A stretch of 38,497 bases of DNA, from IMG/VR virus record IMGVR_UViG_3300014533_000149, one strand, 5' to 3'. The translations under genes were made by a program, and so were the position numbers. Every line of letters starts with the position of its first letter. Position 1 is the first letter of the stretch. The notes under the pieces are model-generated. The model searched no databases and was not told the DNA's origin. It saw only the letters and a program-made list of their open reading frames with translations. Positions 1,974 to 33,398 of the stretch are shown here, in pieces. This DNA comes from a virus. Its lineage: Duplodnaviria; Heunggongvirae; Uroviricota; Caudoviricetes.

Positions 1974-4580
1974 TTATTTCCTGCAAACTCCAGATGATGT
2001 TAATCCATCAAAAATAACCTGCACTCTGGCAATAACAACATCAACTCCAGAAGTCGTTTCACTTGCATAACCAAGTTTTATTTTAGATACAATATCCTGA
2101 GTAAGTTCAGATATTTCAGTTTCTGCAATGTTACCAGAGGCCATGTGATTATCGTATGCCATAGAATGAATTCCATTATTGACATCGATTGAACTAGTAT
2201 GTTTGTGAAAAATAGATGGGTTTACCTGAAACGAATTTGAACCGATAAGATCAGAAGATACTCCATTCATCACTGCAGTACAGCGTGGAATATTATTATC
2301 GGTTATTGTCATATGCAGACGGTTACCAGTTAACCCCTCACCAAGTGTGACATAATACGCCAATTCTCCACCTGCATATTGTTTCCCCTCAACAATAACA
2401 GTAATCCCTCTTAATTTCTGATTAGCTAGCAAAAACTTATTACTGTCTATATAGCATTTATTTGCGGAACCAAAAACAGCCCCTTCTAAAATATCTGATG
2501 AATAGGAATAAATAAGGTCACCTGAAACAAAGGAAAGAATATCAGATACGTTTCCTTTTTTAGATAAGTTGGGAGAATAGCTATTAACTATTTCATATTG
2601 TCCTGTGATAAAATCAAGGTAAACGCCATCAGTTTTCATCTCTTTAAAGAAAATGCTATTAAAGCATCCATCAAGAACCGGTGGATATATTCTAGAGCTT
2701 GCATAAGCTGTTGGGTGATTCTTATTATTACCACTACCAGGCGAATAAACATCTTCGTTAGTCATTGACTTTTTAAGCTTAACAGGAATCATCGGCTGCA
2801 TATCAATTTTGCAGTTCCCTGAACCACCGATGCGAGGATAAAATAAACCACCAAACCTTACAATATTACTACTGAATAGTATTTCGTTATCGTTAAGTGT
2901 TATCTCAACGAAGTTTCCAATAAGTTTAAATTCAACTGAAAACAAACCAAGTGGAGCAGATAATTTAACAATATTGCGCATAAAAACACCTACAGTCCCT
3001 GTTGATGCAGTATAGTGTGTGGTTTCAAAGGCAGAGCCTGTATATTTCAAGTTAATGAAATTATTATGGTATGAAGACAATTGGAATTGAATCCCAGAAC
3101 TAAGGATTTCAATATCTACAAATTGAATCCTTACGGAGTAAGAATATGATAAATCTTCATATTCATAAGGCAATGTAACATCTTTTGAAATAGTTGCCCT
3201 CACATAATTACCAGAAACCACATCAACCCCATCACGTACTGCATTAAAGTAACGATTAAAATCAATAAGCCCAGCGCCAACATACTGCGCATATGAACGA
3301 GTCCATCCTGCCATTGCGTTTCGTCCATTCTGAGCTTCTAAACTGCTAAATTCAGAGTCACTTGTGGTACTTGATGGGAGGATATTTGTACAAAAAACAA
3401 TTTCAGGCATTGAAGTAATATCATTCAGTTCAGCCATCAATTTAAAAAAAGTTTTCTGCGGGAAGTTACCAACATCCCAACCATCTCCGTCATTCATGCC
3501 AAAAGCAATAATAACAACATCAGGGTTAATATCACGAATGTAATCAATCCAGCGTCTGTTCGTGTCTGAATACCATGGGTACTGTGAGTTATAAGAAGTA
3601 ATTGCTGGTGTATCTTTTCCAAGGTCATAGTACCTCATTCCACCAATTGCTCTGTTAAATAAAGTAGAACTTGGGAATTTCTCTTGCAAAACTCTCTTAA
3701 GATGAGCGGCAAAAATGCTTGATCGATCCACTGTGCTTATATTATATGGGGCACTTAAGCTGTCACCAACTAACACTATTTTTGAGTTAGGCCTTGATAA
3801 TCTCTCAAGTGTTTTAGATGTGACTAAACTGCAGGAATTAATGAACTGAGTACTATTTAGCGTCTGTTCAAGTGTATCACCAAATCTGGTACCAACGTAT
3901 GATGATCCGTTGACACTTGCTAGCTTAAGGCATAAATCAGCAGTATCTGTAATTGAAAAAATAGGAACAGGACGTCCTAAACTGTCATACCCCTGAATTG
4001 AGTTTGCCCTAGAAGATGCTGATGCCATTTCGCTTACTATCTCAGGGAAGCGGAGTGTTTTAGATATGTTGCTGTTAATAACTCCTTTGATAGATGAGTC
4101 TGTATATTTCTTCGTGGAAGCGTCCTGAGGAAATAATGGATCATCAAGGTTACGAATACGATTGCCGAGTGCATCGTAGTAAGTGGCACTAAATGATGGT
4201 TTACGAAGAGCCAGCCGAGCCATGCTTTTGACTAACTGGATCAGCATCGTTAGCTTATCAAAAGCATCCTCATGCACTTCCGCAAAGAACTTACCCTGAT
4301 TGCGCAGATCAGTTTCCTGTGTAACCGGTAGCTCTCGTGATATAGAAATCTTATAGCCATTGGCCAACGCCTTCGACAATATTACATTTCCACCATTGTA
4401 TCCTCCGGCCCCGGTAACTATATAATCAGTATCAAGAGTCAGTACGGTGATATTTTCATGAATATCAACAACCTGCACAATCAAATCAGATTTATTGAAA
4501 ACCCTAAAGGCATACGGAAACGATGTCGTAACGCCGTTACCGGTGTATTCGTTGTGGTCAACTTCGGTTGAGACCGTCAT
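1974..4580 (-). CDS. Tailspike/tail fibre with T7 gp17-like N-terminal anchor and a central SGNH/GDSL esterase-like domain
   Basis: 868 aa; N-terminal ~110 aa resemble the T7 tail-fibre N-terminal domain; GDSLS motif (IVLVGDSLSAPYN) and GxND block (IIAFGMNDGDG); SD GGAGAT 7 nt upstream; visibly AT-rich after the N-terminal part. Confidence 0.75.
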   Translation of the reverse strand: MTVSTEVDHNEYTGNGVTTSFPYAFRVFNKSDLIVQVVDIHENITVLTLDTDYIVTGAGGYNGGNVILSKALANGYKISISRELPVTQETDLRNQGKFFAEVHEDAFDKLTMLIQLVKSMARLALRKPSFSATYYDALGNRIRNLDDPLFPQDASTKKYTDSSIKGVINSNISKTLRFPEIVSEMASASSRANSIQGYDSLGRPVPIFSITDTADLCLKLASVNGSSYVGTRFGDTLEQTLNSTQFINSCSLVTSKTLERLSRPNSKIVLVGDSLSAPYNISTVDRSSIFAAHLKRVLQEKFPSSTLFNRAIGGMRYYDLGKDTPAITSYNSQYPWYSDTNRRWIDYIRDINPDVVIIAFGMNDGDGWDVGNFPQKTFFKLMAELNDITSMPEIVFCTNILPSSTTSDSEFSSLEAQNGRNAMAGWTRSYAQYVGAGLIDFNRYFNAVRDGVDVVSGNYVRATISKDVTLPYEYEDLSYSYSVRIQFVDIEILSSGIQFQLSSYHNNFINLKYTGSAFETTHYTASTGTVGVFMRNIVKLSAPLGLFSVEFKLIGNFVEITLNDNEILFSSNIVRFGGLFYPRIGGSGNCKIDMQPMIPVKLKKSMTNEDVYSPGSGNNKNHPTAYASSRIYPPVLDGCFNSIFFKEMKTDGVYLDFITGQYEIVNSYSPNLSKKGNVSDILSFVSGDLIYSYSSDILEGAVFGSANKCYIDSNKFLLANQKLRGITVIVEGKQYAGGELAYYVTLGEGLTGNRLHMTITDNNIPRCTAVMNGVSSDLIGSNSFQVNPSIFHKHTSSIDVNNGIHSMAYDNHMASGNIAETEISELTQDIVSKIKLGYASETTSGVDVVIARVQVIFDGLTSSGVCRK

Positions 4581-4683
4581 GTTAAATCTCCAGATAGTCG
4601 CAGCACCCGTTGCGCCGCATATCTGGTTATTCTATTACCTGAAAAACCATATATGTATAGAAAGACTATAAATACCAATAGAT

Positions 4684-5080: not shown

Positions 5081-5163
5081 TTTACATCGCACTCCTCTTG
5101 TGCCATAGTAATCGGGCACTGGCAAAATCCAGTGCCGGGATTGGTCTCCCGGATTACTACAGA

Positions 5164-5193
5164 GGCACATATGCCGCATAAGCGGTTTTTTTT
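5164..5193 (+). terminator. Candidate rho-independent terminator
   Basis: Short GC hairpins (GGCA-CATA-TGCC, CCGC-ATAA-GCGG) followed by an 8-T run; stems are short. Confidence 0.35.
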
Positions 5194-5347
5194 ATGTGTA
5201 AAGCGCACCTATTCTATGGTGGGCTGTGTGGGGGCACCGAAAGGTGCGCCGGGTTCCTTTGTAGCCGGTAAGACCAACTCTGCACAGTTCACCACCATCT
5301 GATTGGTCTCAGCGGTGGTGATTAACCTAACTACAAAGGTGATCGCC

Positions 5348-6040
5348 ATGAATACCAAACCTTCCATCTTTTCCTTTGAGTCATCCTGCCAGATCCGTAT
5401 GTTCATGATTGACGGAGAACCTTGGTTTGTCACCAAAGATGTGTGCAATGCTTTGAATATTGATGTTACACAAGCGAGAAAACTTGATAAAAAAGGCTGG
5501 AACAAAAAGGGGCTGTATTCAATACAGACCCCTGGTGGAATACAAGAACTATCCATCGTTTCAGAATCAGGTCTCTACATCCTTATTCTGCGTTGCAAAG
5601 AGGCAATGACTGAGGGAACGAGAGCATTCAGATTTCTTGAATGGGTTACAGGCGAGGTTCTTCCTCAGATCCGCCGCACCGGAAGTTACATTAAAAACTC
5701 GCTACCGCAGGAAGAACGCATAAAGATGGTTGCCGACCAGGTAGCCAACGCCACGGCGTCAGCAGTAATGCAGGCGATGAAGATAGAGAACAAAACCTAC
5801 AGTGCTCCACTGAAGCCCGGCTACCGTAGCCTGATTCATTCTCCGTCTGGTGTTCTCGGCCTGACGGAGAACTCACTGCTGATGAATCTGCTGAACCAGT
5901 TACAGGACGACGGGCACGACGTATCGGGCGCGGCGGCGGAGCTGACCACCATGTTCTGCTACATCGTTGGTGTGAGCAAATGCCTGCGTGATATCCAGAC
6001 GCACGCGGAGTACATCAACGACAAGGCTGGGTTCTTCTGA
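5348..6040 (+). CDS. Antirepressor (Ant)-like protein with Bro-N N-terminal domain
   Basis: ATG 5348 with SD AAAGGTGA; N-terminal region matches the Bro-N fold pattern (FMIDGEPWFVTKDVCNAL...); C-terminal ~65 aa paralogous to the 4776..5033 product. Confidence 0.65.
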   Translation: MNTKPSIFSFESSCQIRMFMIDGEPWFVTKDVCNALNIDVTQARKLDKKGWNKKGLYSIQTPGGIQELSIVSESGLYILILRCKEAMTEGTRAFRFLEWVTGEVLPQIRRTGSYIKNSLPQEERIKMVADQVANATASAVMQAMKIENKTYSAPLKPGYRSLIHSPSGVLGLTENSLLMNLLNQLQDDGHDVSGAAAELTTMFCYIVGVSKCLRDIQTHAEYINDKAGFF

Positions 6041-6256: not shown

Positions 6257-6796
6257 GTGTTAAGTGAAGAAATGCAATTTGCCATGGCTGTGGCTCAAAT
6301 CGTAAGTGCAGTCGCGGTTTCGCTTGGCTTGTTCATAGCTATCGCTACTATTATTTATAATGTAAATACAGCGAGAAAAGTACACACTTCAGTATTCCTT
6401 GGTGAAAGCAGGTTTGATGTAGATTATAAGAAAGGCCTATCTACTATGCGCCGCATTCACGAGTCGAACAAATCATTCCGCTCTTATATGTATCCAAGCA
6501 ATGGGCAGGCTGATCTTACGGATGAAGAAAAGACAGAGAAGAGAGAAATAATTTACTGTCTAGGTTTCTACGAACGCATGGCTGTGAGCGTGAAGCGGAA
6601 AACTTATGATGAGACCATGATTAAGGAAGTATTTTACAGCTCCGTTGTAAATAACTATCAGATTGCGCTACCTCTTATACAAGCCATTAGAGAAAAAGAA
6701 AACATAAACACATATTTTAAAGAATATGAATGGTTGGCCACACGATGGAAGGATTGCCCATTGAAGGATAAATCCCCGTGGTACAAGTTTTGGTAA
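6257..6796 (+). CDS. Membrane-anchored hypothetical protein (moron; candidate superinfection-exclusion/defence function)
   Basis: 179 aa; N-terminal TM helix then a charged soluble domain; AT-rich; SD GGAGA 6 nt before GTG 6257 (ATG 6272 is an alternative start). Confidence 0.5.
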   Translation: MLSEEMQFAMAVAQIVSAVAVSLGLFIAIATIIYNVNTARKVHTSVFLGESRFDVDYKKGLSTMRRIHESNKSFRSYMYPSNGQADLTDEEKTEKREIIYCLGFYERMAVSVKRKTYDETMIKEVFYSSVVNNYQIALPLIQAIREKENINTYFKEYEWLATRWKDCPLKDKSPWYKFW

Positions 6797-21360: not shown

Positions 21361-21657
21361 TCACTCCTGTTCACTGGCCTCTTTGGCCATCTTCAAATAC
21401 TGTTCAGGGCAATGCGCCATAACGCGCTGAAACAGTTCCAGCGCCAGATTGCGTTGCCCCTCATTAAATGCCATTGCCATAGCGTCCATCGGTGAGATAG
21501 CGGAAAACACCCGGCCTTTCTCCAGCACAGACCAGACAACGCGACGCCCCTGTTCACTGCTCATGACAAAGCGAATGTCATCAATTTCACGCTGTGCCAT
21601 GTCACGTTGCTTACGGGCGTTTTCTTCTTTCAGTTGATCATCTTCGTAATCTGTCAT
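21361..21657 (-). CDS. Hypothetical small protein between portal and scaffold
   Basis: 98 aa; ATGA overlap with the portal stop; SD GGGTGGG. Confidence 0.5.
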   Translation of the reverse strand: MTDYEDDQLKEENARKQRDMAQREIDDIRFVMSSEQGRRVVWSVLEKGRVFSAISPMDAMAMAFNEGQRNLALELFQRVMAHCPEQYLKMAKEASEQE

Positions 21658-23333
21658 TGTGATTGCCCACCCTGACCACTAACTGCATTCGCCATAGCTG
21701 ACAAAACACTCGGATCCGAAGTTTTAGCTTCGCTTAGCGTCTTGGCACCCTGTGCCGCCGCCATCCCCATCGCCATCATTTGTTGCTGCTGTTGTTGCTG
21801 TGCCCGTTGCTGGCGAGCCTGCTCAACCTGTTCCTGCGGAACAATGAAGGTTGGAGACACTCCGGACATATCAGCGAATGCATCGATCGCCTGATCAACA
21901 TTGAGTTTGTCGAGAGCTTCTGGTTTCGCTTGCGCAAGTTGACCAATGAAGTTGACCGTAGACGCCAGACTGGACAGGCCGATAGACTTCTGCGCCTGAG
22001 CCATGACAGAAATGTATTCGACCTTCAGGGGCATACCTTCCATCGCGTCAGGCGGTGGCGGCAGCATGTTTTTACGCACCATCATCGAGAAAGCGCGGTC
22101 AATGAGAGGATTAAGACATTCGTCGTTCAGACGCTCCAGAACCGGCCCCAACATCAGAAGTTTTTCTTCTTTCATTTCGATCACCGCTTCAACAGGCATC
22201 GAGCGGGTATTGATGTTCTGCAACATCATGAACAGATCGACAAAGTAGGCGCTGTTAATGATTTGACGCGTGTCCTGAATGTCTGCCACCAAATCTGCTG
22301 TACTGGGGTTAACCAGATAAGCAGGCCTGAAACCATCCTGACCAGTAATCTGATCGATATACGTGATGTCGCCAGGAAGAAGGGAGGCACGCTGATTCTT
22401 GAGGGAAGTCGGAGCAACCATCGGAGGATTGGTGGCTTTATCAATCAACTGCGACTTGCGCTTCTGGAGAAGCTGTAATGCCTTAACAGGTCCAAGCGCC
22501 AGCATACCCGGGCATGATGATCCATAAACATCTTCGCCGTTAACTTCCCAGCGCGGAGCCATAATTGGAAACTCATCGAATCCGGACTCACGCAACAACT
22601 TGTCGTTATCACCGCCAACCTCGTAATAAACCGATTTGAATGGCTTGTTCTTGCCATCCAGCTTCGATGTATCGCGGTCAATGTTCGGGTAAACCGAATG
22701 CATCACTTCAATCCACTTCTCGTAGGTGCCGCTTTCCCACATGCTTTTTACGGATTCGCTGACGTTATTTAGCCCGAACTCCTGAACAAGCTGACGAACA
22801 GTCATAGAGAACTTGCGAAAACAGGTGTCCACACTGCCACGAGGTGAGTTAGCCAGGTAGTAACTGCCTATAGGGAATGGCATTGTGCGAATGATGTCCT
22901 CGTCATCCTCCAGCACCGCCATTGCACCAGTGCTGTATGTGCCGAGGCTTCCGTATAACTGCGGCAGCGACTGATAGAGATTCGACTTATTGAACATATC
23001 GTTCATGCGGTTCTGCACCGCCTCAAGCCACAACTTAACAGGGCCATAATCCATCATTTCAGGATCTGGCGTAGCCAGGCGAAACCACGGACGCGCGGGG
23101 CTTGTGATGCCTGACATCATGCCGCTAGCGAGAGTGCGCGCCGCCATAGTCCCGGTCGAATCAATAATGCGTGTATTCCGTCGATCGTTACGGTTGACCT
23201 CAGAAGTCAGAAAGCGGGAACCACGCGGGTTGATGTAATCACTCAACTCGCGCCAGTGCGGCTCGAACGACTGACGCTCGCTTTCAAGTTGTGCGAACTG
23301 TTTGTTCAATCGCTCTTTAGTTGTTTCCGCCAT
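21654..23333 (-). CDS. Portal protein
   Basis: 559 aa with Gln/Ala-rich C-terminal tail; immediately downstream of the terminase genes in the late operon; SD GGAG. Confidence 0.7.
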   Translation of the reverse strand: MAETTKERLNKQFAQLESERQSFEPHWRELSDYINPRGSRFLTSEVNRNDRRNTRIIDSTGTMAARTLASGMMSGITSPARPWFRLATPDPEMMDYGPVKLWLEAVQNRMNDMFNKSNLYQSLPQLYGSLGTYSTGAMAVLEDDEDIIRTMPFPIGSYYLANSPRGSVDTCFRKFSMTVRQLVQEFGLNNVSESVKSMWESGTYEKWIEVMHSVYPNIDRDTSKLDGKNKPFKSVYYEVGGDNDKLLRESGFDEFPIMAPRWEVNGEDVYGSSCPGMLALGPVKALQLLQKRKSQLIDKATNPPMVAPTSLKNQRASLLPGDITYIDQITGQDGFRPAYLVNPSTADLVADIQDTRQIINSAYFVDLFMMLQNINTRSMPVEAVIEMKEEKLLMLGPVLERLNDECLNPLIDRAFSMMVRKNMLPPPPDAMEGMPLKVEYISVMAQAQKSIGLSSLASTVNFIGQLAQAKPEALDKLNVDQAIDAFADMSGVSPTFIVPQEQVEQARQQRAQQQQQQQMMAMGMAAAQGAKTLSEAKTSDPSVLSAMANAVSGQGGQSQ

Positions 23334-23347
23334 TTCAATGACTCCGG

Positions 23348-23554
23348 TTACTGACCAAGTAGCGTTTTACCGCTGGTATTAGCGGTTGATGTGTCGCCCT
23401 GAGAACCGGTAAGCAGCGTAGAACTACGACCAGCAGCAGCGCGACGGCGACGAGTTTCTTCGTCGCGGGCATCAACAACGGCGGCATCCTGCTCCTGTGG
23501 TGCTGCCTGAACTTCTGGTGTTGCAGGCACTGATGGTGAGCTACCCATGCACAT
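23348..23554 (-). CDS. Hypothetical small protein (68 aa), doubtful
   Basis: Low-complexity ORF; its start region shares a 12-mer (TCAATGACTCCG on the plus strand) with the portal start region. Confidence 0.25.
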   Translation of the reverse strand: MCMGSSPSVPATPEVQAAPQEQDAAVVDARDEETRRRRAAAGRSSTLLTGSQGDTSTANTSGKTLLGQ

Positions 23555-23643
23555 ATCAATGACTCCGTACGCAATTAAATTATTACCAATTTAACCACAT
23601 ATGATTTATTTATCGTAGGAGGTTGACATTTAACGCACGAATT

Positions 23644-23660
23644 ATTACCTTTCAGGTAAT
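23644..23660. promoter_or_regulatory. Operator-like palindrome ATTACC-TTTCA-GGTAAT
   Basis: Perfect dyad upstream of the portal-proximal part of the late operon. Confidence 0.5.
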
Positions 23661-23980
23661 CAAAAAGTTCATTCCGGTTACTAACCTGACTGGCTTGTCG
23701 TTAAATTGAACAGGTGGAGTGAGCTTTTATTTTGAGCAGTACGGCGTATGGCACATGCGCCGATAGCGGTCTGGGTACGTTTAAGGGGCACCCTCCCTTG
23801 CTCGGGCAAACGAACCAGGTAGCCGGAATGTGCAAGTCGAGCGGTTTTATTCCGCGCACGGGGATTCACCATCCCGGCGATTCGGTGTGACGCCTCGGAA
23901 GAGACGAGGTACAACGATGAGAGCATTTATGGATCCGCGACAAAGTGTGGCGCCTTAACAGGCTAAGTGCTCTCAGCGTT

Positions 23981-24057
23981 GTGGCATTAGCTCAGTTGGA
24001 CAGAGCAACCGCCTTCTAAGCGGTTGGTCGCAGGTTCGAATCCTGCATGCCACGCCA
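23981..24057 (+). tRNA. tRNA-Arg (anticodon UCU)
   Basis: 77 nt; cloverleaf by hand: acceptor GTGGCAT/ATGCCAC, D-stem GCTC/GAGC, anticodon stem ACCGC/GCGGT with loop CTTCTAA, T-arm GCAGG-TTCGAAT-CCTGC, 3' CCA; differs from E. coli argU in stems as recalled. Confidence 0.85.
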
Positions 24058-24100
24058 GAATCACGCCTAAGGACCGTGATGCCAGAAGTTCCAAGTGCTT

Positions 24101-24144
24101 GGCGGTGATGGTTTCCCTTGAAGGACTATCACCGCCCTTTTTAC
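24101..24144 (+). terminator. Rho-independent terminator downstream of the tRNA
   Basis: GGCGGTGAT...ATCACCGCC stem followed by CTTTTT. Confidence 0.55.
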
Positions 24145-24220
24145 AGCAGGACGCCATTGCGATGACTTCATGCTGTAAACCCGTACAGCCACGGAAGGCA
24201 TAACTCATTGCTTCCAGTTC

Positions 24221-24245
24221 GCCCACTTCAGTGGGCTTTTTTTTC
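24221..24245 (+). terminator. Rho-independent terminator
   Basis: GCCCAC-TTCA-GTGGGC followed by 8-9 T. Confidence 0.65.
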
Positions 24246-24257
24246 TAGTGACTACTG

Positions 24258-24274
24258 ATTACCTTATGGGTAAT
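24258..24274. promoter_or_regulatory. Operator-like palindrome ATTACC-TTATG-GGTAAT
   Basis: Perfect dyad ~30 bp upstream of the 24306 start. Confidence 0.5.
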
Positions 24275-24305
24275 ATGCTGCAAACAAATAACACAAGGCC
24301 GTGAC

Positions 24306-25196
24306 ATGCTTGACTTCATCCGTGACATTTACTCCTCTTTCCGCCAAGCATCTCTTGAGCGGGTGAAAAGCCCGTTCCTTGGGGCATTTGTTTTTTCCTG
24401 GCTTTGCTTTAATTGGCAGATGTTAGCAATTCTATTTTTTAGTTCTAAGGATATTGAAAAGCGCCTTGCTATTATTAATGGCTCTTTCGGCATCGTCAGC
24501 TTTTTAATTGCGCCAATATGCACTACAGCATTGATAGTTATCCTTTTACCGCAAATTAATAAATTAATTACAATAATACAAGATAAACCTAACTCAGACA
24601 CAATTGAAATGAGCCTTGCATCTAAAATAAAGATCGCCGAACTGCAGCAACTATTAGCAGAAAATGAAGCAAGAAAGAAACTTGCTGATAAAAAAGAAGA
24701 ACGCTTCATTGAAGAGAATATTATTTCAATAAAAAAAGACCATGAAAAAGCAATAGATAACCTTAAAGACAAAGAAAGTAAAATCTTAAATCTCACGGAC
24801 ACAATAACTGAACTTCAGAGCAAACTGGTTAAAGCTGAGGCCACTCTCAAAGTTGAACAGGAGTCAAGATCCCAAGTGCAGAATGAATTGATTATTGAAA
24901 AAGAGAACAAGCGGAAATTAGAAGACAACATTCTGCACCTTAATTTAAGTTTAAAAAAAAACCAATCAGAATTGGCCATTGCAAAAGAAGCCTATGATAA
25001 TACCTTGATGGCTTATAATGAACTTAACACAACATTAAAAAAAGCAGAAAGCTCAATAATAAACTTCAATGCTAACTTTCCTTTTTTAACTGACATAAAT
25101 AACAGCACCCCAAATACATACTTAAAAATAAATAAAAATGCATGGGAGCATTTAGTTAGTTTAAATTTAAGTCTAAAGGAGAAAATACAAAAATAA
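24306..25196 (+). CDS. Membrane-anchored coiled-coil protein (moron; candidate exclusion/abortive-infection function)
   Basis: 296 aa; two hydrophobic helices in the first ~90 aa then a long Lys/Glu/Leu-rich coiled-coil-like region; strongly AT-rich; opposite strand to the flanking late genes. Confidence 0.55.
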   Translation: MLDFIRDIYSSFRQASLERVKSPFLGAFVFSWLCFNWQMLAILFFSSKDIEKRLAIINGSFGIVSFLIAPICTTALIVILLPQINKLITIIQDKPNSDTIEMSLASKIKIAELQQLLAENEARKKLADKKEERFIEENIISIKKDHEKAIDNLKDKESKILNLTDTITELQSKLVKAEATLKVEQESRSQVQNELIIEKENKRKLEDNILHLNLSLKKNQSELAIAKEAYDNTLMAYNELNTTLKKAESSIINFNANFPFLTDINNSTPNTYLKINKNAWEHLVSLNLSLKEKIQK

Positions 25197-25219
25197 ATAA
25201 CCAATCCACTATGGCATAT

Positions 25220-26689
25220 TTACTCATACGGGTCATAATCTATTATAGCCTTACCCTGCTGCTGGCGCGGATCATTAAGTTTTTTTGTGACCGGAAAAGC
25301 AAACGTCAGCAGTAGCGCATCGCCTTTACCCGGCGAACGCCCAAGCCGCTCCTTGATATCTTCCTTCGGTTCGATAACGATTTTACCGTCCACTCGAACT
25401 TTGTACTCTGCCGCCGACAGGTCGTCCGCTGTTTCCTGGTCATCCAGCATGCCGCCCAGCCTCAGCCATGTCTTGCATGAGTTGAACATCTCCCCACGCT
25501 TGTTGAGCATCTGCGGGTCAGTAGACGCGCCACCGAACGGAACAAGTTGCCACGTCCGCCCCCAGCCGTCACCGATGGACTTCAGCCCGGTGCCGTAACC
25601 AAAGTCGATAAACACCGCATCAGCCTGGTACTGGTCTTCAAAGTCGGCGATGCGCTTCGCCATAATCAGATCGTCAGTGGTCTTGTTTCCCGTCCAGAGG
25701 ACTTTGCTGTGCAGCCCCTGTCGCAGGTATATCACCGCGTCATCCACGCCGGAATACGCCGGGTCGACGCCAATAATCACCGGAGCGTGCGCCACCTGCG
25801 CAGCGGTCACGACGCGCTTCATCGCCTCATCGGTCAGCCCGGTCGGGATGAACTGCAGTTCTGACGCGTCAGGGAAGATCCCCCGCACACGGACCTTCAC
25901 GAAGTCGCTGTCCTCGCCATGGTCTTCAATCCATTTTTGAATCTGCTCTTTGTTCGTTCCTTCGACGGTACGGCTGTCGATCTGCTTCGTAACCCAGCGG
26001 TGTTTATATTTGCGGAAGCATTCCCTGAAACGCCCGGAGTTACGCGTAGGGTTTCCGAACGCTACCCAGATGATTTCCGTGTCTTCGTCCGTCAGCGCAC
26101 CCTCGGCCACCTCCCAAACTTTATCAGCAATGTTTGACGCCTCATCGAATACCACGATGATCCGCTTACGCTCGTTGTGCAGGCCGGCGAACGCCTCGGT
26201 GTTGTGCTCAGACCACGGGATTGCGTCAGCGCGCCAGCGTTTATCGTGGCCCGGATCATTGCTGTACATGGCTGTTGCTGGGGTAGAGAACCAGTCTTTC
26301 GTGATGGACAGGTTTGCCCACTTAATCACTTCAGGCCATGTCTTGGTACGCAGCTGATTTTCGGTGTTGGCAGTGACTACTGCTTTGCAGTCTTCGCAGG
26401 TTGACATACCCCAGTTCAGGAGCATGGAAATACCCGCACTTTTCCCTATGCCGTGGCCTGAAGAAACGGCAATCATCAGCGGCTGATGACGGGTTTCTGG
26501 GTTCCTGAGGTGCTCACCAACCGTATCGAGCATCCATCTTTGCCAGTTTCTTGGTCCGGATGCATGCGCCAGCTCTGTACCCTCTTCCCCCCACGGGAAC
26601 GCATAGAGGGCATAGCCAAGCGGATCGTGAGTGAACCCTGCTATATCCTCGATCAACTGCTCTTCAGGAGATAACGATGTATCTGTCAC
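25220..26689 (-). CDS. terL: Terminase large subunit
   Basis: 489 aa; Walker A-like SSGHGIGKSAG and acidic nuclease-like C-terminal half; GTG start overlapping the terS stop (GTGA) with SD AGGATGG. Confidence 0.8.
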   Translation of the reverse strand: MTDTSLSPEEQLIEDIAGFTHDPLGYALYAFPWGEEGTELAHASGPRNWQRWMLDTVGEHLRNPETRHQPLMIAVSSGHGIGKSAGISMLLNWGMSTCEDCKAVVTANTENQLRTKTWPEVIKWANLSITKDWFSTPATAMYSNDPGHDKRWRADAIPWSEHNTEAFAGLHNERKRIIVVFDEASNIADKVWEVAEGALTDEDTEIIWVAFGNPTRNSGRFRECFRKYKHRWVTKQIDSRTVEGTNKEQIQKWIEDHGEDSDFVKVRVRGIFPDASELQFIPTGLTDEAMKRVVTAAQVAHAPVIIGVDPAYSGVDDAVIYLRQGLHSKVLWTGNKTTDDLIMAKRIADFEDQYQADAVFIDFGYGTGLKSIGDGWGRTWQLVPFGGASTDPQMLNKRGEMFNSCKTWLRLGGMLDDQETADDLSAAEYKVRVDGKIVIEPKEDIKERLGRSPGKGDALLLTFAFPVTKKLNDPRQQQGKAIIDYDPYE

Positions 26690-27282
26690 TGATTACCATC
26701 CTGACGTTCTTTGAGTCGCTTCCTGGCTGCTGCTATGCGATCAGCAATTGTCACATTCACATTAACATCCAGACGTTCTTTGAACGCGTTGACATCAACA
26801 TGCTTACCAATCAGCTCAAGGTTCTTCACCTTGTCAGGCCATTTAATTTTTTTGAGGATTGTCTCTATCGAATCCTCGTTCATGTTCATGATGGTCGATG
26901 ACAGATCAAAGCCACTAAGCGTAGTGCGCCAGATTTTCGGCCACTCACGGATTGGTTTAAGGCTCCCATCGTCGTTGAGGATGTCGATCACGTCCATCTG
27001 GTCGATCTCCACCAGGCGCATGAGAACGTAATCAGCACTGACGCGCATTCGTTTGTTGCGCTCCTCCATCAACTCGGCAATCCGTTTTTGAATGCGTTCA
27101 TCGCGCATCATGACACTGGCTTTAACTGCCGCTGTATTTGGAGAGAATCCTGCGTTAATCGCTGCCTGAGTCTGGTTTTCAGGCGTTTTGATGTATGACT
27201 GGCAATAAGCCTCCTGCATTGCTGTTAGTGGCTTAAATTGCGTTGATTTGCGTTTATAGGTTTTAGGTTCAGCAGGCATCAT
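26686..27282 (-). CDS. terS: Terminase small subunit
   Basis: About 198 aa from ATG 27282; small-terminase-like N-terminal DNA-binding region; directly upstream of terL. Confidence 0.65.
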   Translation of the reverse strand: MMPAEPKTYKRKSTQFKPLTAMQEAYCQSYIKTPENQTQAAINAGFSPNTAAVKASVMMRDERIQKRIAELMEERNKRMRVSADYVLMRLVEIDQMDVIDILNDDGSLKPIREWPKIWRTTLSGFDLSSTIMNMNEDSIETILKKIKWPDKVKNLELIGKHVDVNAFKERLDVNVNVTIADRIAAARKRLKERQDGNQ

Positions 27283-27289
27283 AACCACC

Positions 27290-27321
27290 GTGGTAATAGT
27301 TACCGTTGTGGTAATAGTACC
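27290..27321. repeat. Tandem direct repeats GTGGTAATAGTTACC / GTGGTAATAGTACC
   Basis: Two copies 18 bp apart immediately upstream of terS; each contains a GGTAAT half-site in everted arrangement. Confidence 0.5.
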
Positions 27322-27322
27322 A

Positions 27323-27351
27323 TGCAAAATAAAGCCGCCATAGTTGGCGGC
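27323..27351 (-). terminator. Rho-independent terminator between early/nin genes and the late operon
   Basis: On the minus strand GCCGCC-AACTAT-GGCGGC followed by TTTATTTTG. Confidence 0.6.
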
Positions 27352-27392
27352 AGTATTCAAAACCCATCAAATTCATCATGCATAATCTACTC

Positions 27393-28854: not shown

Positions 28855-29093
28855 TTGTTAATCCTCAAAACTTTATGCCCGGGCGCAAAAGCACGTGTTT
28901 TGTCTTTACTTATTCGCCACCCGTCTTTACGGGCCTCTTTTGCACAACCAGACCATGACGTACCGATATACTCACCGAAGTCTGGCACTGGATATACACC
29001 TTCCGTACACTGGCGGCAGTCACAATAGAGATGCATGGTGTAACTTGCAGCGATAGCCATATCACTCTCCTTTGATGCGAATGCCTGTTGCAA
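28851..29093 (-). CDS. Small Cys-rich hypothetical protein
   Basis: CxC-x2-C...C pattern; start may be the internal ATG at about 29060. Confidence 0.4.
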   Translation of the reverse strand: MQQAFASKESDMAIAASYTMHLYCDCRQCTEGVYPVPDFGEYIGTSWSGCAKEARKDGWRISKDKTRAFAPGHKVLRINK

Positions 29094-29198
29094 TGCTGTT
29101 TATGATGCTGTCAGTGCATGGGGTAGAAAGCTGGGCATCTCCAGCAATTTTCATGACATCAACATCTGCATATCGAATACCGAGGTGTATCAGACCGG

Positions 29199-29507
29199 CT
29201 ATGCCTGACTTAAGCCGAGCATTTTCCATAAATAGAACTTTTGCCCGCTGTTTTTCTGCTTCAAGCTCAACGCGCAGCTTCCNNNNNNNNNNNNNNNNNN
29301 NNNNNNNNNNNNNNNNNNNNNNNNNNNNNNNNNNNNNNNNNNNNNNTCCCGTTCATCCAGCAGTGCCAGCGCGATATCTGGCGAAAAGTGCTTCATAAAA
29401 TCGTTAAGCGCATTAATTCGCTGATCGAAGGGCATTACAGGTGCTTCACCAGCAATTTTTGTTTTTTCAGCGATTTCACGAAGCTTTTGATAATCAATCT
29501 TGCTCAC
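29199..29507 (-). CDS. ead/Ea22-like early protein, interrupted by an N run
   Basis: Coiled-coil-like N-terminus; the reading frame crosses 64 N so frame and length are unreliable. Confidence 0.3.
   Translation of the reverse strand: MSKIDYQKLREIAEKTKIAGEAPVMPFDQRINALNDFMKHFSPDIALALLDERXXXXXXXXXXXXXXXXXXXXXXGSCALSLKQKNSGQKFYLWKMLGLSQA
29283..29346. other. Run of 64 N (assembly gap or masked sequence)
   Basis: Directly visible; not a multiple of 3. Confidence 0.99.
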
Positions 29508-32813: not shown

Positions 32814-33398
32814 ATGAAAAGTATCCAGGACGTCCGCAGGCAAAATCTCAACGACTTGATCGACCGTGAATTCAATGGTGTTCAGACGCGGATGGCAGAA
32901 AAACTTGGAACTCAGGCAAATCTGGTAAACCGCTGGGCTCTTGGCAAGAAGGTTATCGGCGACCAGGTTGCGCGAAAAATTGAAGCTGCCGCCAATAAAC
33001 CCCGTAACTGGCTTGATATCGATCGCTCGCTTTCTCAGGAAGGTTTTCAGCCTGTCGGCCCAAGCGACATTGGTCAGCTGGCGGCTCACAACCTGGAACG
33101 CTGGATGAGCGAAAGCCGCGACCTTTCAACACAGGGAAAACTTCACCGCGCATCCGGCGTCGCCCAGGTGACAATCAGCCGCCTGTTAAACAATGAGGTC
33201 AGCGTTTCCATTTCCACCCTGGAGAATGTTGCATCCGCATTCGGGCGTCACGGCTATGAATTACTGATTCACCCGCACGACCCTGCGACCATCAACTATG
33301 ACCGCTCGCGCTACGCATTGTTACCCGAAACCGAGAAAGCAAAGATCGAAAGTTACATTGAATTTGTCATCAACCAGAACGAAAAAAACAAACAATAA
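32814..33398 (+). CDS. Tandem-HTH repressor-like protein, no peptidase S24 autocleavage domain seen (putative prophage repressor)
   Basis: 194 aa with two Cro/C1-type HTH-like segments (about aa 5-65 and 100-165); weak SD; divergent from the cro-like gene; own terminator downstream. Confidence 0.6.
   Translation: MKSIQDVRRQNLNDLIDREFNGVQTRMAEKLGTQANLVNRWALGKKVIGDQVARKIEAAANKPRNWLDIDRSLSQEGFQPVGPSDIGQLAAHNLERWMSESRDLSTQGKLHRASGVAQVTISRLLNNEVSVSISTLENVASAFGRHGYELLIHPHDPATINYDRSRYALLPETEKAKIESYIEFVINQNEKNKQ

What the first reader, a model, noticed from the sequence alone, without database searches (positions are those of the whole stretch)
23555..25219. tRNA-Arg(UCU) plus an AT-rich membrane/coiled-coil gene inserted between terL and portal
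In comparable phages terL is followed directly by the portal gene. Here about 1.6 kb sits between them on the opposite strand: a phage-type tRNA-Arg(UCU), two tandem terminators, an operator-like palindrome and a 296-aa protein with two N-terminal TM helices and a long coiled coil. There is no minus-strand terminator between terL and portal, so late transcription must read antisense through the cassette. Membrane-anchored coiled-coil morons in this position are candidates for superinfection exclusion, abortive infection or lysogenic conversion; no known family is recognised.
Basis: partly seen in the sequence, partly recalled or inferred. Interest (0 to 1): 0.7.

Follow-up and report, generated by a model that had tools for sequence, protein, structure and literature searches.

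The report
Phage accessory cassette with hidden RNA
The 1.6 kb between the terminase and portal genes is the standard, repressor-controlled accessory slot of epsilon15-like phages.

Summary
All the described features are real: tRNA-Arg(UCU) at 23981-24057, two plus-strand terminators, a palindrome, and an AT-rich 296-aa ORF with two TM segments and about 160 residues of coiled coil.

The framing as an insertion is wrong. The window is an E. coli Uetakevirus (epsilon15/phiV10-like) prophage. Every enterobacterial relative examined has an opposite-strand cassette at this position. Only its last gene is exchangeable; alternatives include gp49_66, a Tad2-like anti-Thoeris protein and an HNH endonuclease.

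The palindrome ATTACC-N5-GGTAAT is the phage's own dispersed operator (13 sites against 1.1 expected). One copy overlaps the cassette promoter and another sits in the ORF's promoter. The unit is therefore probably silent in the lysogen and switched on early after induction.

The supposed spacer upstream of the tRNA (23736-23912) is a pseudoknotted RNA with strong covariation support. It is absent from Rfam 15. It also lies in the 5'UTR of P1 ban and just downstream of cI in mEp460/Stx2-type lambdoids.

The ORF's N-terminal domain defines a large uncharacterised superfamily (1680 clusters). One member sits in the P2 old/tin defence hotspot.

Best reading: an early accessory unit for phage-phage or defence conflict. 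The protein's and the RNA's functions are inferred, not shown.

The parts
23348..23554 (-). gp3-like 68-aa gene (phrog_831). It is the conserved flank between the cassette and portal.
   Evidence: Present in all Uetakevirus loci.
23573..23612 (.). Sequence block (AATTAAATTATTACCAATTTAACCACATATGATTTATTT) immediately upstream of gp3, conserved across the loci. Possible late promoter or regulatory site for gp3-portal; function unknown.
   Evidence: Alignment of 19 loci. Conserved even in the Rahnella and Pantoea loci that lack the RNA core.
23623..23651 (+). Promoter Pa: -35 TTGACA (23623-23628), 17-nt spacer, -10 TACCTT (23646-23651).
   Evidence: Read directly from the sequence. epsilon15 has the same geometry. 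The -35 is conserved in all loci. It falls below the scan threshold because the -10 matches only 3 of 6 positions.
23644..23660 (.). Operator Oa, ATTACCTTTCAGGTAAT, overlapping the -10 of Pa.
   Evidence: 13 sites against 1.14 expected. The homologous epsilon15 site is annotated as a repressor binding site.
23663..23735 (+). Leader module M1: a long hairpin, diverged in this window. It is homologous to the stretch annotated 'RNaseIII mRNA processing' in epsilon15.
23736..23912 (+). Conserved pseudoknotted RNA core: helices P1-P5 plus two candidate pseudoknots, with the invariant motif GGUAGCCGGAAUGUGCAAG. Not in Rfam.
   Evidence: Covariance model R1 scores 144.5 bits. Covariation test. No Rfam match. 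Also present in P1, mEp460 and Stx2 phages.
23911..23982 (+). 19-bp closing stem (AACGAUGAGAGCAUUUA / UAAGUGCUCUCAGCGUUGU) that abuts the 5' end of the tRNA.
   Evidence: Inverted repeat I1. Conserved across loci.
23981..24057 (+). tRNA-Arg(UCU) with encoded CCA. It occupies a modular position that holds other inserts in relatives that lack the tRNA.
24060..24080 (+). Conserved hairpin AUCACG-CCUAAGGAC-CGUGAU.
   Evidence: Conserved with or without the tRNA.
24101..24143 (+). Terminator-like hairpin T1 (14 bp) followed by CUUUUUA.
   Evidence: Conserved in Uetakevirus, and related hairpins follow the core in several other phage classes.
24140..24244 (+). Hairpin 24140-24179, a conserved stretch CAUUGCUUCCAGU (24206-24218), then strong terminator T2 (24221-24236 plus U8). 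Shaped like a small RNA.
   Evidence: fold z-score -3.4. Weak RyhB resemblance, 17.8 bits, E=1.8. Homology to phiV10 ends at 24244.
24248..24276 (+). Promoter Pb (GTGACT, 17-nt spacer, TAATAT) with operator Ob, ATTACCTTATGGGTAAT (24258-24274), in the spacer and -10.
   Evidence: Present only where this cargo type brings its own promoter.
24306..25196 (+). Cargo gene, 296 aa. Conserved N-terminal two-TM domain (residues 1-140), hypervariable coiled coil (141-257) and a small C-terminal beta-hairpin plus helix.
   Evidence: (phrog_13369, E=1.6e-142).

Best explanation
Region 23555-25219 is the genus-wide early accessory transcription unit of Uetakeviruses. It lies antisense between terL and gp3/portal.

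Shown:
- A sigma-70-type promoter (Pa) overlapped by the phage's own operator (Oa).
- tRNA-Arg(UCU).
- Two intrinsic terminators (T1, T2).
- An exchangeable cargo gene.
- In this prophage the cargo is a two-TM, long coiled-coil protein that brings a second promoter with its own operator (Ob).

Inferred:
- In the lysogen the HTH repressor (32814-33398) occupies Oa and Ob and keeps the unit off.
- On induction or infection both promoters fire early.
- The tRNA is cut out of the leader transcript. It supplements decoding of AGA, which is over-used in this phage.
- The leader RNA acts in cis on the transcribing polymerase or transcript. Antitermination or processing would let read-through of T1 and T2 express the cargo in the relatives whose cargo start codon follows T2 directly.
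- The membrane protein inserts in the inner membrane through its conserved N-domain and projects a roughly 24-nm coiled coil, probably into the cytoplasm. It acts in phage-phage or phage-defence conflict during lytic growth, either excluding or aborting competitors or countering a host membrane effector.
For: Architecture and conservation:
- phiV10-type phages are 97.7% identical over 23335-24244, with the break exactly after T2.
- The same layout occurs in epsilon15, SPN9TCW, BUCT711 and 12 species' prophages.

Operator:
- 13 matches to ATTACC-N5-GGTAAT against 1.14 expected. They lie at the immunity region, the antirepressor/C4 region, the terS start and early operons.
- The epsilon15 record annotates the homologous sites as repressor sites.
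- A candidate HTH_3 repressor is present.

Early-accessory nature of the slot:
- Cargo families include a Tad2-like anti-Thoeris domain (PF11195, 91.7 bits), Phage_gp49_66 and HNH_3.
- In most loci the cargo ATG lies 12-17 nt after the U-run of T2.

tRNA:
- AGA occurs at 6.7 and AGG at 4.7 per 1000 codons in the prophage. From my own knowledge, the E. coli averages are roughly 2-3 and 1-2.

RNA:
- 96.2% of cells are paired, against 29-44% in the slid controls.
- 16 pairs show compensatory changes, against 3-8 in the controls.
- G-U pairs fix the strand as +.
- It sits downstream of operator-bearing promoters in other phages and at the nutL/putL position in N-less lambdoids.

Protein:
- Homologues in E. 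coli, Cronobacter, Rahnella, Pantoea and Klebsiella phage occupy the same slot.
- Relatives sit in the P2 gpA-gpQ old/tin hotspot, in a Serratia prophage and in a Vibrio inovirus variable region.
- Mean column conservation is 0.8-0.9 for residues 1-140 and 0.3-0.45 for residues 141-296.
Against: - No expression data. Repressor binding to Oa and Ob is inferred from a GenBank annotation and from site distribution.
- Pa and Pb are weak matches to consensus, and the promoter scan did not call them.
- Nothing shows that the RNA affects termination. P1's copy has no terminator before ban, and most genomes hold one copy, unlike putL/putR.
- The protein matches no known exclusion, abortive-infection or anti-defence family.
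- Coiled coils diverge fast for neutral reasons, so hypervariability is weak evidence of an arms race.
- Charge counts do not settle the topology, and the TM region of the model has low confidence.
- A prophage defence in the P2 hotspot would be expressed in lysogens, which conflicts with repression here.
Confidence: 0.6

Rival explanations
1. First reader's reading. The ORF is a lysogen-expressed moron: superinfection exclusion, abortive infection or lysogenic conversion, produced constitutively from the prophage.
For: - AT-rich, opposite strand, own promoter, preceded by terminators.
- A relative sits in the P2 old/tin defence hotspot.
- The membrane anchor resembles the effectors of many abortive-infection systems (general knowledge; discussed in PMC9122126).
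Against: - A perfect copy of the phage operator lies between the -35 and -10 of its promoter, and the upstream promoter is likewise operator-controlled.
- Other cargos in the slot include an anti-defence (Tad2-like) gene, which is typically an early lytic function.
- No PADLOC match beyond coiled-coil noise.
Confidence: 0.2
2. The protein is a counter-defence or host-takeover factor of the early lytic phase. For example, an rII-like protector of the membrane against host abortive-infection effectors, or an inhibitor of a host membrane complex.
For: - Predicted early expression from operator-controlled promoters.
- It shares a slot with a Tad2-like anti-Thoeris cargo.
- A very conserved membrane domain could bind a conserved host target.
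Against: - No homology to any known anti-defence protein.
- The P2-hotspot relative points the other way.
- The hypervariable C-terminus is not explained by a conserved host target.
Confidence: 0.2
3. The leader RNA (23736-23912) is not a cis antiterminator. Instead it is a stable trans-acting early ncRNA, or a processing scaffold that delivers the tRNA or tRNA-like module. T1 and T2 would simply define its 3' ends, and cargo expression would be by leak or by its own promoter.
For: - It is adjacent to a tRNA or tRNA-like module in three phage classes: upstream trnI in P1, and downstream tRNA-Arg or other inserts in Uetakevirus and lambdoids.
- A T1-like hairpin recurs downstream.
- There is one copy per genome rather than a putL/putR pair.
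- The model gives no hit in HK022.
Against: - In most Uetakevirus loci the cargo SD and ATG lie directly behind a strong terminator with no room for a promoter, so some read-through mechanism is needed.
- The position equals nutL/putL in lambdoids that lack an N gene.
Confidence: 0.35
4. The protein has a housekeeping lytic role, such as lysis timing, spanin- or holin-like action, or tethering replication or packaging to the membrane.
For: - The membrane anchor plus coiled coil resembles i-spanins in outline (own knowledge).
- It is located next to the packaging genes.
Against: - It is absent from most relatives, which replace it with unrelated genes.
- Relatives occur in P2-like and filamentous phages at accessory positions.
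- It is far longer than spanins and has two TM segments.
Confidence: 0.07

Closest known systems
P2 old/tin hotspot between gpA and portal gpQ (Rousset et al. 2022, PMC9122126)
   Same: A fixed position next to the packaging genes where unrelated accessory genes replace one another. A relative of the 296-aa protein (P0142) sits in that very hotspot.
   Different: The P2 hotspot genes are prophage-expressed defences. Here the slot has operator-controlled promoters, a leader RNA, a tRNA and terminators, and it also carries an anti-defence-type cargo (Tad2-like).
Lambdoid 'morons' (own knowledge: HK97/HK022 comparisons)
   Same: AT-rich gene on the opposite strand inside the late operon, with its own promoter and a terminator nearby.
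   Different: Morons are defined by expression from the prophage and by absence from relatives. Here the unit is genus-wide, and its promoters carry the phage operator.
HK022 put RNAs (PMC9378689)
   Same: A structured RNA just downstream of an early, repressor-controlled promoter and upstream of terminators. In mEp460/Stx2-type lambdoids it lies downstream of cI, where putL/nutL would be.
   Different: put is about 70 nt with two stem-loops and occurs as putL plus putR. This core is about 160-180 nt with five helices and two candidate pseudoknots, and usually occurs once per genome. Model R1 finds nothing in HK022. Function has not been tested.
P1 C1 regulon of dispersed operators with a c4/ant immI region (own knowledge)
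   Same: One repressor with many scattered operators, each shutting off a separate early operon. C4 antisense RNA and isrK are present in the window. The same leader RNA lies in P1's C1-controlled ban operon.
   Different: The operator here is a 17-bp perfect palindrome, not the asymmetric C1 site. The repressor is an HTH_3 protein.
Phage-borne tRNA-Arg(UCU), such as argU-like genes and the ileZ-argN-argO cluster of Stx phages (own knowledge)
   Same: Supplies a rare-codon tRNA to a phage that over-uses AGA and AGG.
   Different: It is embedded as a swappable module inside a longer structured transcript. 14 of 40 related slots lack it.
Early membrane exclusion and immunity proteins: T4 Imm/Sp, P22 SieA, lambda RexB, T4 rII (own knowledge)
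   Same: Small inner-membrane phage proteins that act in phage-phage conflict. Some are made early in lytic growth.
   Different: No sequence or fold similarity was found. None of them has a 160-residue coiled coil.
GOLLD and ROOL large phage-associated RNAs (own knowledge; Rfam families)
   Same: Ornate structured RNAs of unknown function in prophages, often next to tRNAs.
   Different: No Rfam match. This RNA is much shorter and occurs in Enterobacteriaceae phages.

Membership tests
tRNA-Arg(UCU) | Cloverleaf, anticodon UCU, 3' CCA | tested here: met
   ARAGORN. Rfam RF00005 73.3 bits against a cut-off of 29. CCA read in the sequence.
tRNA-Arg(UCU) | Expressed, aminoacylated and used for AGA decoding | not testable with these tools
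   Only codon counts are available: AGA 6.7 per 1000 codons.
Uetakevirus (epsilon15/phiV10-like) prophage | Synteny terS-terL-[cassette]-gp3-portal-scaffold-MCP, with high identity to members of the genus | tested here: met
   terL 87-90% and portal 80-99% identical to epsilon15 and phiV10-type phages. 97.7% nucleotide identity over 23335-24244. Records classified as Uetakevirus.
Moron (lysogen-expressed accessory gene) | Own promoter and terminator, on the opposite strand or inserted between conserved genes | tested here: met
   Pb at 24248-24276, T1 and T2 upstream, convergent with terL.
Moron (lysogen-expressed accessory gene) | Expressed from the repressed prophage | tested here: inconclusive
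   A perfect phage operator overlaps the promoter, which argues against expression in the lysogen. No expression data.
Moron (lysogen-expressed accessory gene) | Absent from otherwise similar phages | tested here: met
   The gene is replaced by at least seven unrelated cargos in relatives. The slot itself is always present.
Known anti-phage defence families (PADLOC-DB v2) | Significant match to a defence protein model | tested here: not met
   0 families for the window protein. Distant relatives hit only the coiled-coil parts of LmuB and JetC.
Any Pfam family or solved or predicted fold | HMM or structural match | tested here: not met
   Pfam best E=0.069, below the cut-off. Foldseek against BFVD and PDB gives nothing at E<=0.001. 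Only PHROG families of unknown function match.
HK022 put RNA | Sequence and structure similarity to putL/putR | tested here: not met
   Model R1 gives no hit in the whole HK022 genome (best 5.5 bits, E=3.9). The size and helix number differ from the description in PMC9378689.
HK022 put RNA | Confers terminator read-through in cis and depends on the beta' zinc-binding domain | not testable with these tools
   Only the position (downstream of an early promoter, upstream of T1 and T2) is analogous.
Rfam 15 families (all 4227) | Covariance-model match to 23660-23980 | tested here: not met
   Gathering and E<=5 searches return only the tRNA in this stretch. Nine further loci carrying the RNA also have no family over it.
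RyhB-like sRNA (24190-24244) | Rfam RF00057 at gathering score | tested here: not met
   17.8 bits against a cut-off of 55, E=1.8. It shares the 13-nt CAUUGCUUCCAGU followed by a terminator.

The most novel reading that the evidence does not exclude
The RNA at 23736-23912 is the first recognised member of an undescribed class of phage leader RNA. The class is shared by P1-like, mEp460/Stx2-type lambdoid, epsilon15-like and other temperate enterobacterial phages. In this reading it acts on the transcribing RNA polymerase as a put-like, protein-independent processive antiterminator, or otherwise couples early transcription to tRNA or tRNA-like modules. It would thereby gate expression of an exchangeable counter-defence or defence cargo. 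Separately, the two-TM N-domain of the 296-aa protein would be a new, widespread membrane effector module of phage conflict systems.
Probability: 0.3. Interest if true: 0.85.

Novelty: new variant of a known kind. Interest (0 to 1): 0.62.

Why it matters
Three consequences follow if this holds.

1. **A definable hotspot.** Uetakeviruses would gain a defined accessory hotspot with a fixed regulatory front end: operator, leader RNA and terminators. Its cargos already include a Tad2-like anti-Thoeris gene. The slot could therefore be mined for new defence and counter-defence genes, as the P2 and P4 hotspots were.

2. **An overlooked RNA.** A strongly covarying, pseudoknotted RNA sits unannotated in phage P1 (5'UTR of ban) and beside cI in Stx2-type phages, and some records carry spurious CDS calls over it. 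If it controls termination, it would be a second kind of RNA-only antitermination after HK022 put. It would also explain how N-less lambdoid phages express their early-left operons.

3. **An untested protein superfamily.** The 296-aa protein anchors an uncharacterised membrane superfamily (1680 clusters at 50% identity). Its function can be tested directly by phage challenge.

Tried and rejected
- **Family searches.** Pfam, PADLOC and PHROGs on the 296-aa protein and on 45 distant relatives gave only unknown-function PHROGs and coiled-coil noise: LmuB, JetC, and DUF4407 in 2 of 45.
- **N-domain-only word-index search.** It returned only truncated close relatives. The profile search with the distant alignment was swamped by close relatives.
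- **HK022 put.** Rejected as the family of the RNA.
- **Rfam at a permissive threshold.** Nothing found.
- **Literature.** Exact-sequence searches for the RNA motifs gave 0 papers. A search on put-like or antiterminator RNA in prophages found nothing relevant. Kropinski's epsilon15 paper and Lobocka's P1 genome paper are not held.
- **neaT paper (PMC3573123).** It concerns an unrelated P2-like prophage.
- **PasB sRNA (2026 preprint).** Considered as the identity of the T2-terminated element. This could not be resolved. No sequence is given and its flanks differ, with IsrG and IS009.
- **Protein-coding reading of 23681-23926 (-) and 23987-24226 (-).** Rejected. Indels between relatives are not multiples of three, and conservation follows base pairs.
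Full report
**1. What the window is**

- ORFs, family hits and nucleotide similarity identify an E. coli prophage of the genus Uetakevirus (epsilon15/phiV10-like).
- The late genes run on the minus strand: terS 26686-27360, terL 25220-26689, a 68-aa gp3-like gene 23348-23554, portal 21654-23333 (PF12236), then scaffold and capsid genes.
- The stretch 23335-25240 is 100% identical in E. coli TUM10828 and UPEC69. The full cassette is present in 31 of 5426 complete E. coli genomes, and 770 genomes match part of it.

**2. Check of the observation**

  - tRNA-Arg(UCU) at 23981-24057.
  - Two plus-strand terminator-like hairpins at 24101-24136 and 24221-24236, the latter followed by T8.
  - Palindrome at 24258-24274.
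  - A 296-aa ORF at 24306-25196 with GC 0.33.
- Kyte-Doolittle windows give two hydrophobic segments, at about residues 24-46 and 62-84.
- One heptad register holds over residues 100-257: a/d positions are 0.69 hydrophobic, others 0.26.
- AlphaFold2 with 43 homologues gives a single helix 97-257 at pLDDT above 90, a beta-hairpin 262-275 and a terminal helix. The TM region has low confidence.
- The premise that terL is directly followed by portal in comparable phages is wrong.
  - phiV10-type phages, epsilon15, SPN9TCW and Klebsiella phage BUCT711 all have an opposite-strand cassette at this place.
  - So do prophages of twelve enterobacterial species found with terL.
  - Only distant relatives have about 300 bp between the two genes: a Sphingopyxis MAG, Geopseudomonas and a Dehalococcoidia MAG.
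- Two weak minus-strand terminator-like sites lie inside the ORF. Antisense read-through by late transcription therefore remains an assumption.
- A block conserved in all 19 loci compared, directly upstream of gp3 (23573-23612), could be a separate promoter.

**3. The palindrome is the phage's operator**

- ATTACC-N5-GGTAAT occurs 13 times in the window with up to two mismatches. Shuffles give 1.14 on average, and none of 100 shuffles reached 13.
- The sites lie at these positions:
  - before the C4/isrK-antirepressor region (4684, 5064);
  - after it (6112);
  - at the terS start (27281, 27299);
  - before early operons (30350, 30412, 33455, 33517);
  - between the cro-like gene and an HTH_3 protein (32743);
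  - twice in the cassette (23644, 24258).
- The epsilon15 GenBank record annotates the homologous sites as repressor binding sites.
- Oa (23644-23660) overlaps the -10 of a promoter with a perfect -35: TTGACA at 23623-23628, 17 nt, then TACCTT. The geometry is identical in epsilon15.
- Ob (24258-24274) fills the spacer and -10 of GTGACT-17-TAATAT, directly upstream of the ORF.
- Inference: both promoters are shut in the lysogen and fire when the repressor is removed. This argues against lysogenic conversion or a constitutively expressed prophage defence.

**4. The slot and its cargo**

- Homology to phiV10 (97.7%) ends at 24244, immediately after T2.
- Among 40 distinct complete slots, 26 have tRNA-Arg(UCU) and 14 do not.
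- The last gene varies. Cargo families seen:
  - Phage_gp49_66 in phiV10 and epsilon15 (PF13876);
  - a 139-201-aa family;
  - a 138-aa SPN9TCW family;
  - a Tad2-like anti-Thoeris domain protein (PF11195, 91.7 bits);
  - an HNH_3 endonuclease;
  - a 148-aa membrane protein;
  - others.
- In most loci the cargo Shine-Dalgarno sequence (AGGUGA) and ATG start 12-17 nt after the U-run of T2. The cargo can then be made only by read-through from Pa.
- The window-type cargo instead sits 60-64 nt downstream, with its own promoter and an operator-like site. This holds for the window, L004, L006, L009, L016 and L017.
- The tRNA is not there for its neighbour: the ORF has 2 AGA among 8 Arg codons.
- The prophage as a whole uses AGA at 6.7 and AGG at 4.7 per 1000 codons, concentrated in tail and early genes. 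From my own knowledge this is above the E. coli average.

**5. The 296-aa protein**

- No Pfam or PADLOC family matches. PHROGs places it in phrog_13369, of unknown function.
- 176 homologues, all 'hypothetical', occur in Escherichia, Citrobacter, Leclercia, Hafnia, Cronobacter, Klebsiella and Enterobacter.
- Those examined sit in the same terL/portal slot.
- The alignment shows a sharp break. Residues 1-140 have a mean column conservation of 0.8-0.9, and residues 141-296 have 0.3-0.45.
- A profile of the N-domain finds 1680 clusters (50% identity) at E<=0.001 among 1.84 billion representatives.
  - These proteins are typically 230-350 aa, with the domain at the N-terminus.
  - N36 and P70 are invariant. 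R19, G26, W37 and P82 are nearly so.
- Contexts of more distant members are all accessory.
  - A 514-aa Pantoea protein lies between gpA and portal gpQ of a P2-like prophage. That locus is the experimentally validated old/tin defence hotspot (PMC9122126).
  - A Serratia protein lies on the opposite strand between an SLT protein and a primase.
  - A Vibrio filamentous phage carries one in its variable region.
- Fold searches found nothing.
- I conclude that it is a non-structural, exchangeable inner-membrane protein. I infer a role in phage-phage or phage-defence conflict.
- Three possibilities remain open: exclusion of competitors, abortive infection, or counter-defence. Predicted early expression and the Tad2-like neighbour favour a lytic-phase role. 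The P2-hotspot relative favours defence.

**6. The overlooked RNA**

- The 320 nt between Oa and the tRNA are not a spacer. Aligning 14 loci showed blocks conserved with or without the tRNA.
- The exact 18-mer GTAGCCGGAAUGUGCAAG occurs in at least 120 IMG/VR contigs. Of the 132 motif-bearing sequences examined (121 of them IMG/VR loci), fewer than half are Uetakeviruses.
- The same core occurs in several other phage types.
  - In P1 it lies between trnI and ban (AF234172 about 71018-71200) and is unannotated. P7, D6, SJ46 and RCS47 also match.
  - In mEp460, cdtI, Stx2c-converting and Stx2a_1447-type phages it lies directly downstream of cI, ahead of the early-left genes. Those records have no N gene.
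  - Other classes have it ahead of ParB-like or unknown early genes.
- On 25 sequences that are at most 92% identical, a structure of five helices plus two candidate pseudoknots gives these counts:

| Measure | Structure | Slid controls |
|---|---|---|
| Cells paired | 96.2% | 29-44% |
| Pairs with compensatory change | 16 | 3-8 |
| Covariation score | 0.318 | at most 0.079 |

- No shuffle reached the observed values on four of the five measures.
- Frequent G-U pairs fix the functional strand as plus.
- Pseudoknot 1 (GCACAU:AUGUGC) is invariant and so untestable. Pseudoknot 2 (CACC:GGUG) covaries to AACC:GGUU in three sequences.
- Covariance model R1 scores the window at 144.5 bits, P1 at 146 and mEp460 at 143.
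  - epsilon15 has a truncated copy (33.8 bits).
  - The Rahnella and Pantoea loci give no hit, and HK022 gives only a 5.5-bit match (E=3.9).
  - One contig has two tandem copies.
- Rfam 15 has no family for it at gathering or at E<=5. Exact-motif literature searches returned nothing.
- Downstream of the core comes a 19-bp stem that abuts a modular position closed by GUUGUGG/CCACAAC.
  - That position holds tRNA-Arg here and other inserts elsewhere. By eye, some of those inserts have T-arm-like sequences.
  - Then follow a conserved hairpin, T1, another hairpin and T2.
- Function is not shown. Three points make a cis antitermination or transcript-processing role the most economical idea:
  - its position just after operator-controlled early promoters;
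  - its position at the nutL/putL place of N-less lambdoids;
  - the cargo genes sitting directly behind strong terminators.
- A stable early ncRNA or a tRNA-processing scaffold is about equally possible.

**7. Verdict**

- The region is the standard accessory slot of the genus, under phage-repressor control.
- The gene is one of many alternative cargos and belongs to a large unknown membrane superfamily.
- The most novel item is the structured leader RNA shared with P1 and Stx2-type phages.

**Shown:** the anatomy, conservation, operator statistics, covariation and genomic contexts.

**Inferred:** repression in the lysogen, early expression, tRNA use, the RNA's mechanism and the protein's role.

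Noticed in passing
window 5116-5192 and 5212-5299 (+): isrK (74.7 bits) and C4 antisense RNA (78.6 bits), upstream of a Bro-N antirepressor gene (5348-6040). This is a P1/P7-type immI module, preceded by phage operators at 4684 and 5064.
   Followed up: partly
window 4684, 5064, 6112, 27281, 27299, 30350, 30412, 32743, 33455, 33517: Dispersed copies of the ATTACC-N5-GGTAAT operator at the head of at least six operons. Two overlap the terS start, which suggests direct repression of the late or packaging operon.
   Followed up: partly
L124, L135, L146 (IMG/VR Uetakevirus contigs), cargo position after T2: The cargo in the same slot is a 173-aa protein with a Tad2-like (Thoeris anti-defence 2) domain: PF11195, 91.7 bits, E=4e-26.
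   Followed up: partly
L030 (Pseudescherichia vulneris prophage), cargo position: The cargo is an HNH_3 / His-Me finger endonuclease. This suggests that homing-type elements also use the slot.
   Followed up: no
L172 1519-1701 (phage P1 AF234172, about 71018-71200): The structured RNA core lies unannotated between trnI (tRNA-Ile CAU) and ban in the reference P1 genome (146 bits with model R1).
   Followed up: yes
L173 2443-2811 (mEp460_037); window 23681-23926 (-): Hypothetical CDSs annotated or callable on the minus strand over the RNA core are probably spurious. Conservation follows base pairing, and the indels are not multiples of three.
   Followed up: partly
window 24190-24244 (+): The element just before T2 shares the 13-nt CAUUGCUUCCAGU followed by a terminator with the iron sRNA RyhB (cmscan 17.8 bits, E=1.8, not significant). 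The stretch is conserved in most Uetakevirus loci. Whether it is a chance match or an sRNA mimic is unexplained.
   Followed up: partly
L068 3997-4158 and 4804-4963 (-): One viral contig carries two tandem copies of the RNA core about 650 nt apart. Every other locus searched had one copy.
   Followed up: no
L002 (epsilon15) 4523-4616: epsilon15 itself has an internal deletion, equivalent to window positions from about 23777 to about 24105. It removes most of the RNA core and the tRNA position, yet keeps M1, T1's 3' half and T2. The type phage is therefore atypical for this locus.
   Followed up: partly
L013 and L012, module between GUUGUGG and CCACAAC: Loci that lack the tRNA have inserts with T-arm-like sequences (for example CUGGUUCGACUCCAG) and 7-bp acceptor-like closing stems that ARAGORN does not call. 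They may be degenerate or non-canonical tRNA-like domains.
   Followed up: no
window 6272-6796 (+): Another low-GC (0.40) gene behind an operator (6112) encodes a DUF4760 protein (107.6 bits). It is a second candidate accessory cargo.
   Followed up: no
window 29075-29398 (+): A 107-aa, GC 0.38 ORF on the opposite strand among minus-strand early genes, with no Pfam match. It is a third moron-like gene.
   Followed up: no
window 1974-4580 (-): An 868-aa low-GC (0.38) protein with a GDSL lipase/acylhydrolase domain. It is probably the tailspike, possibly with O-antigen esterase activity.
   Followed up: no
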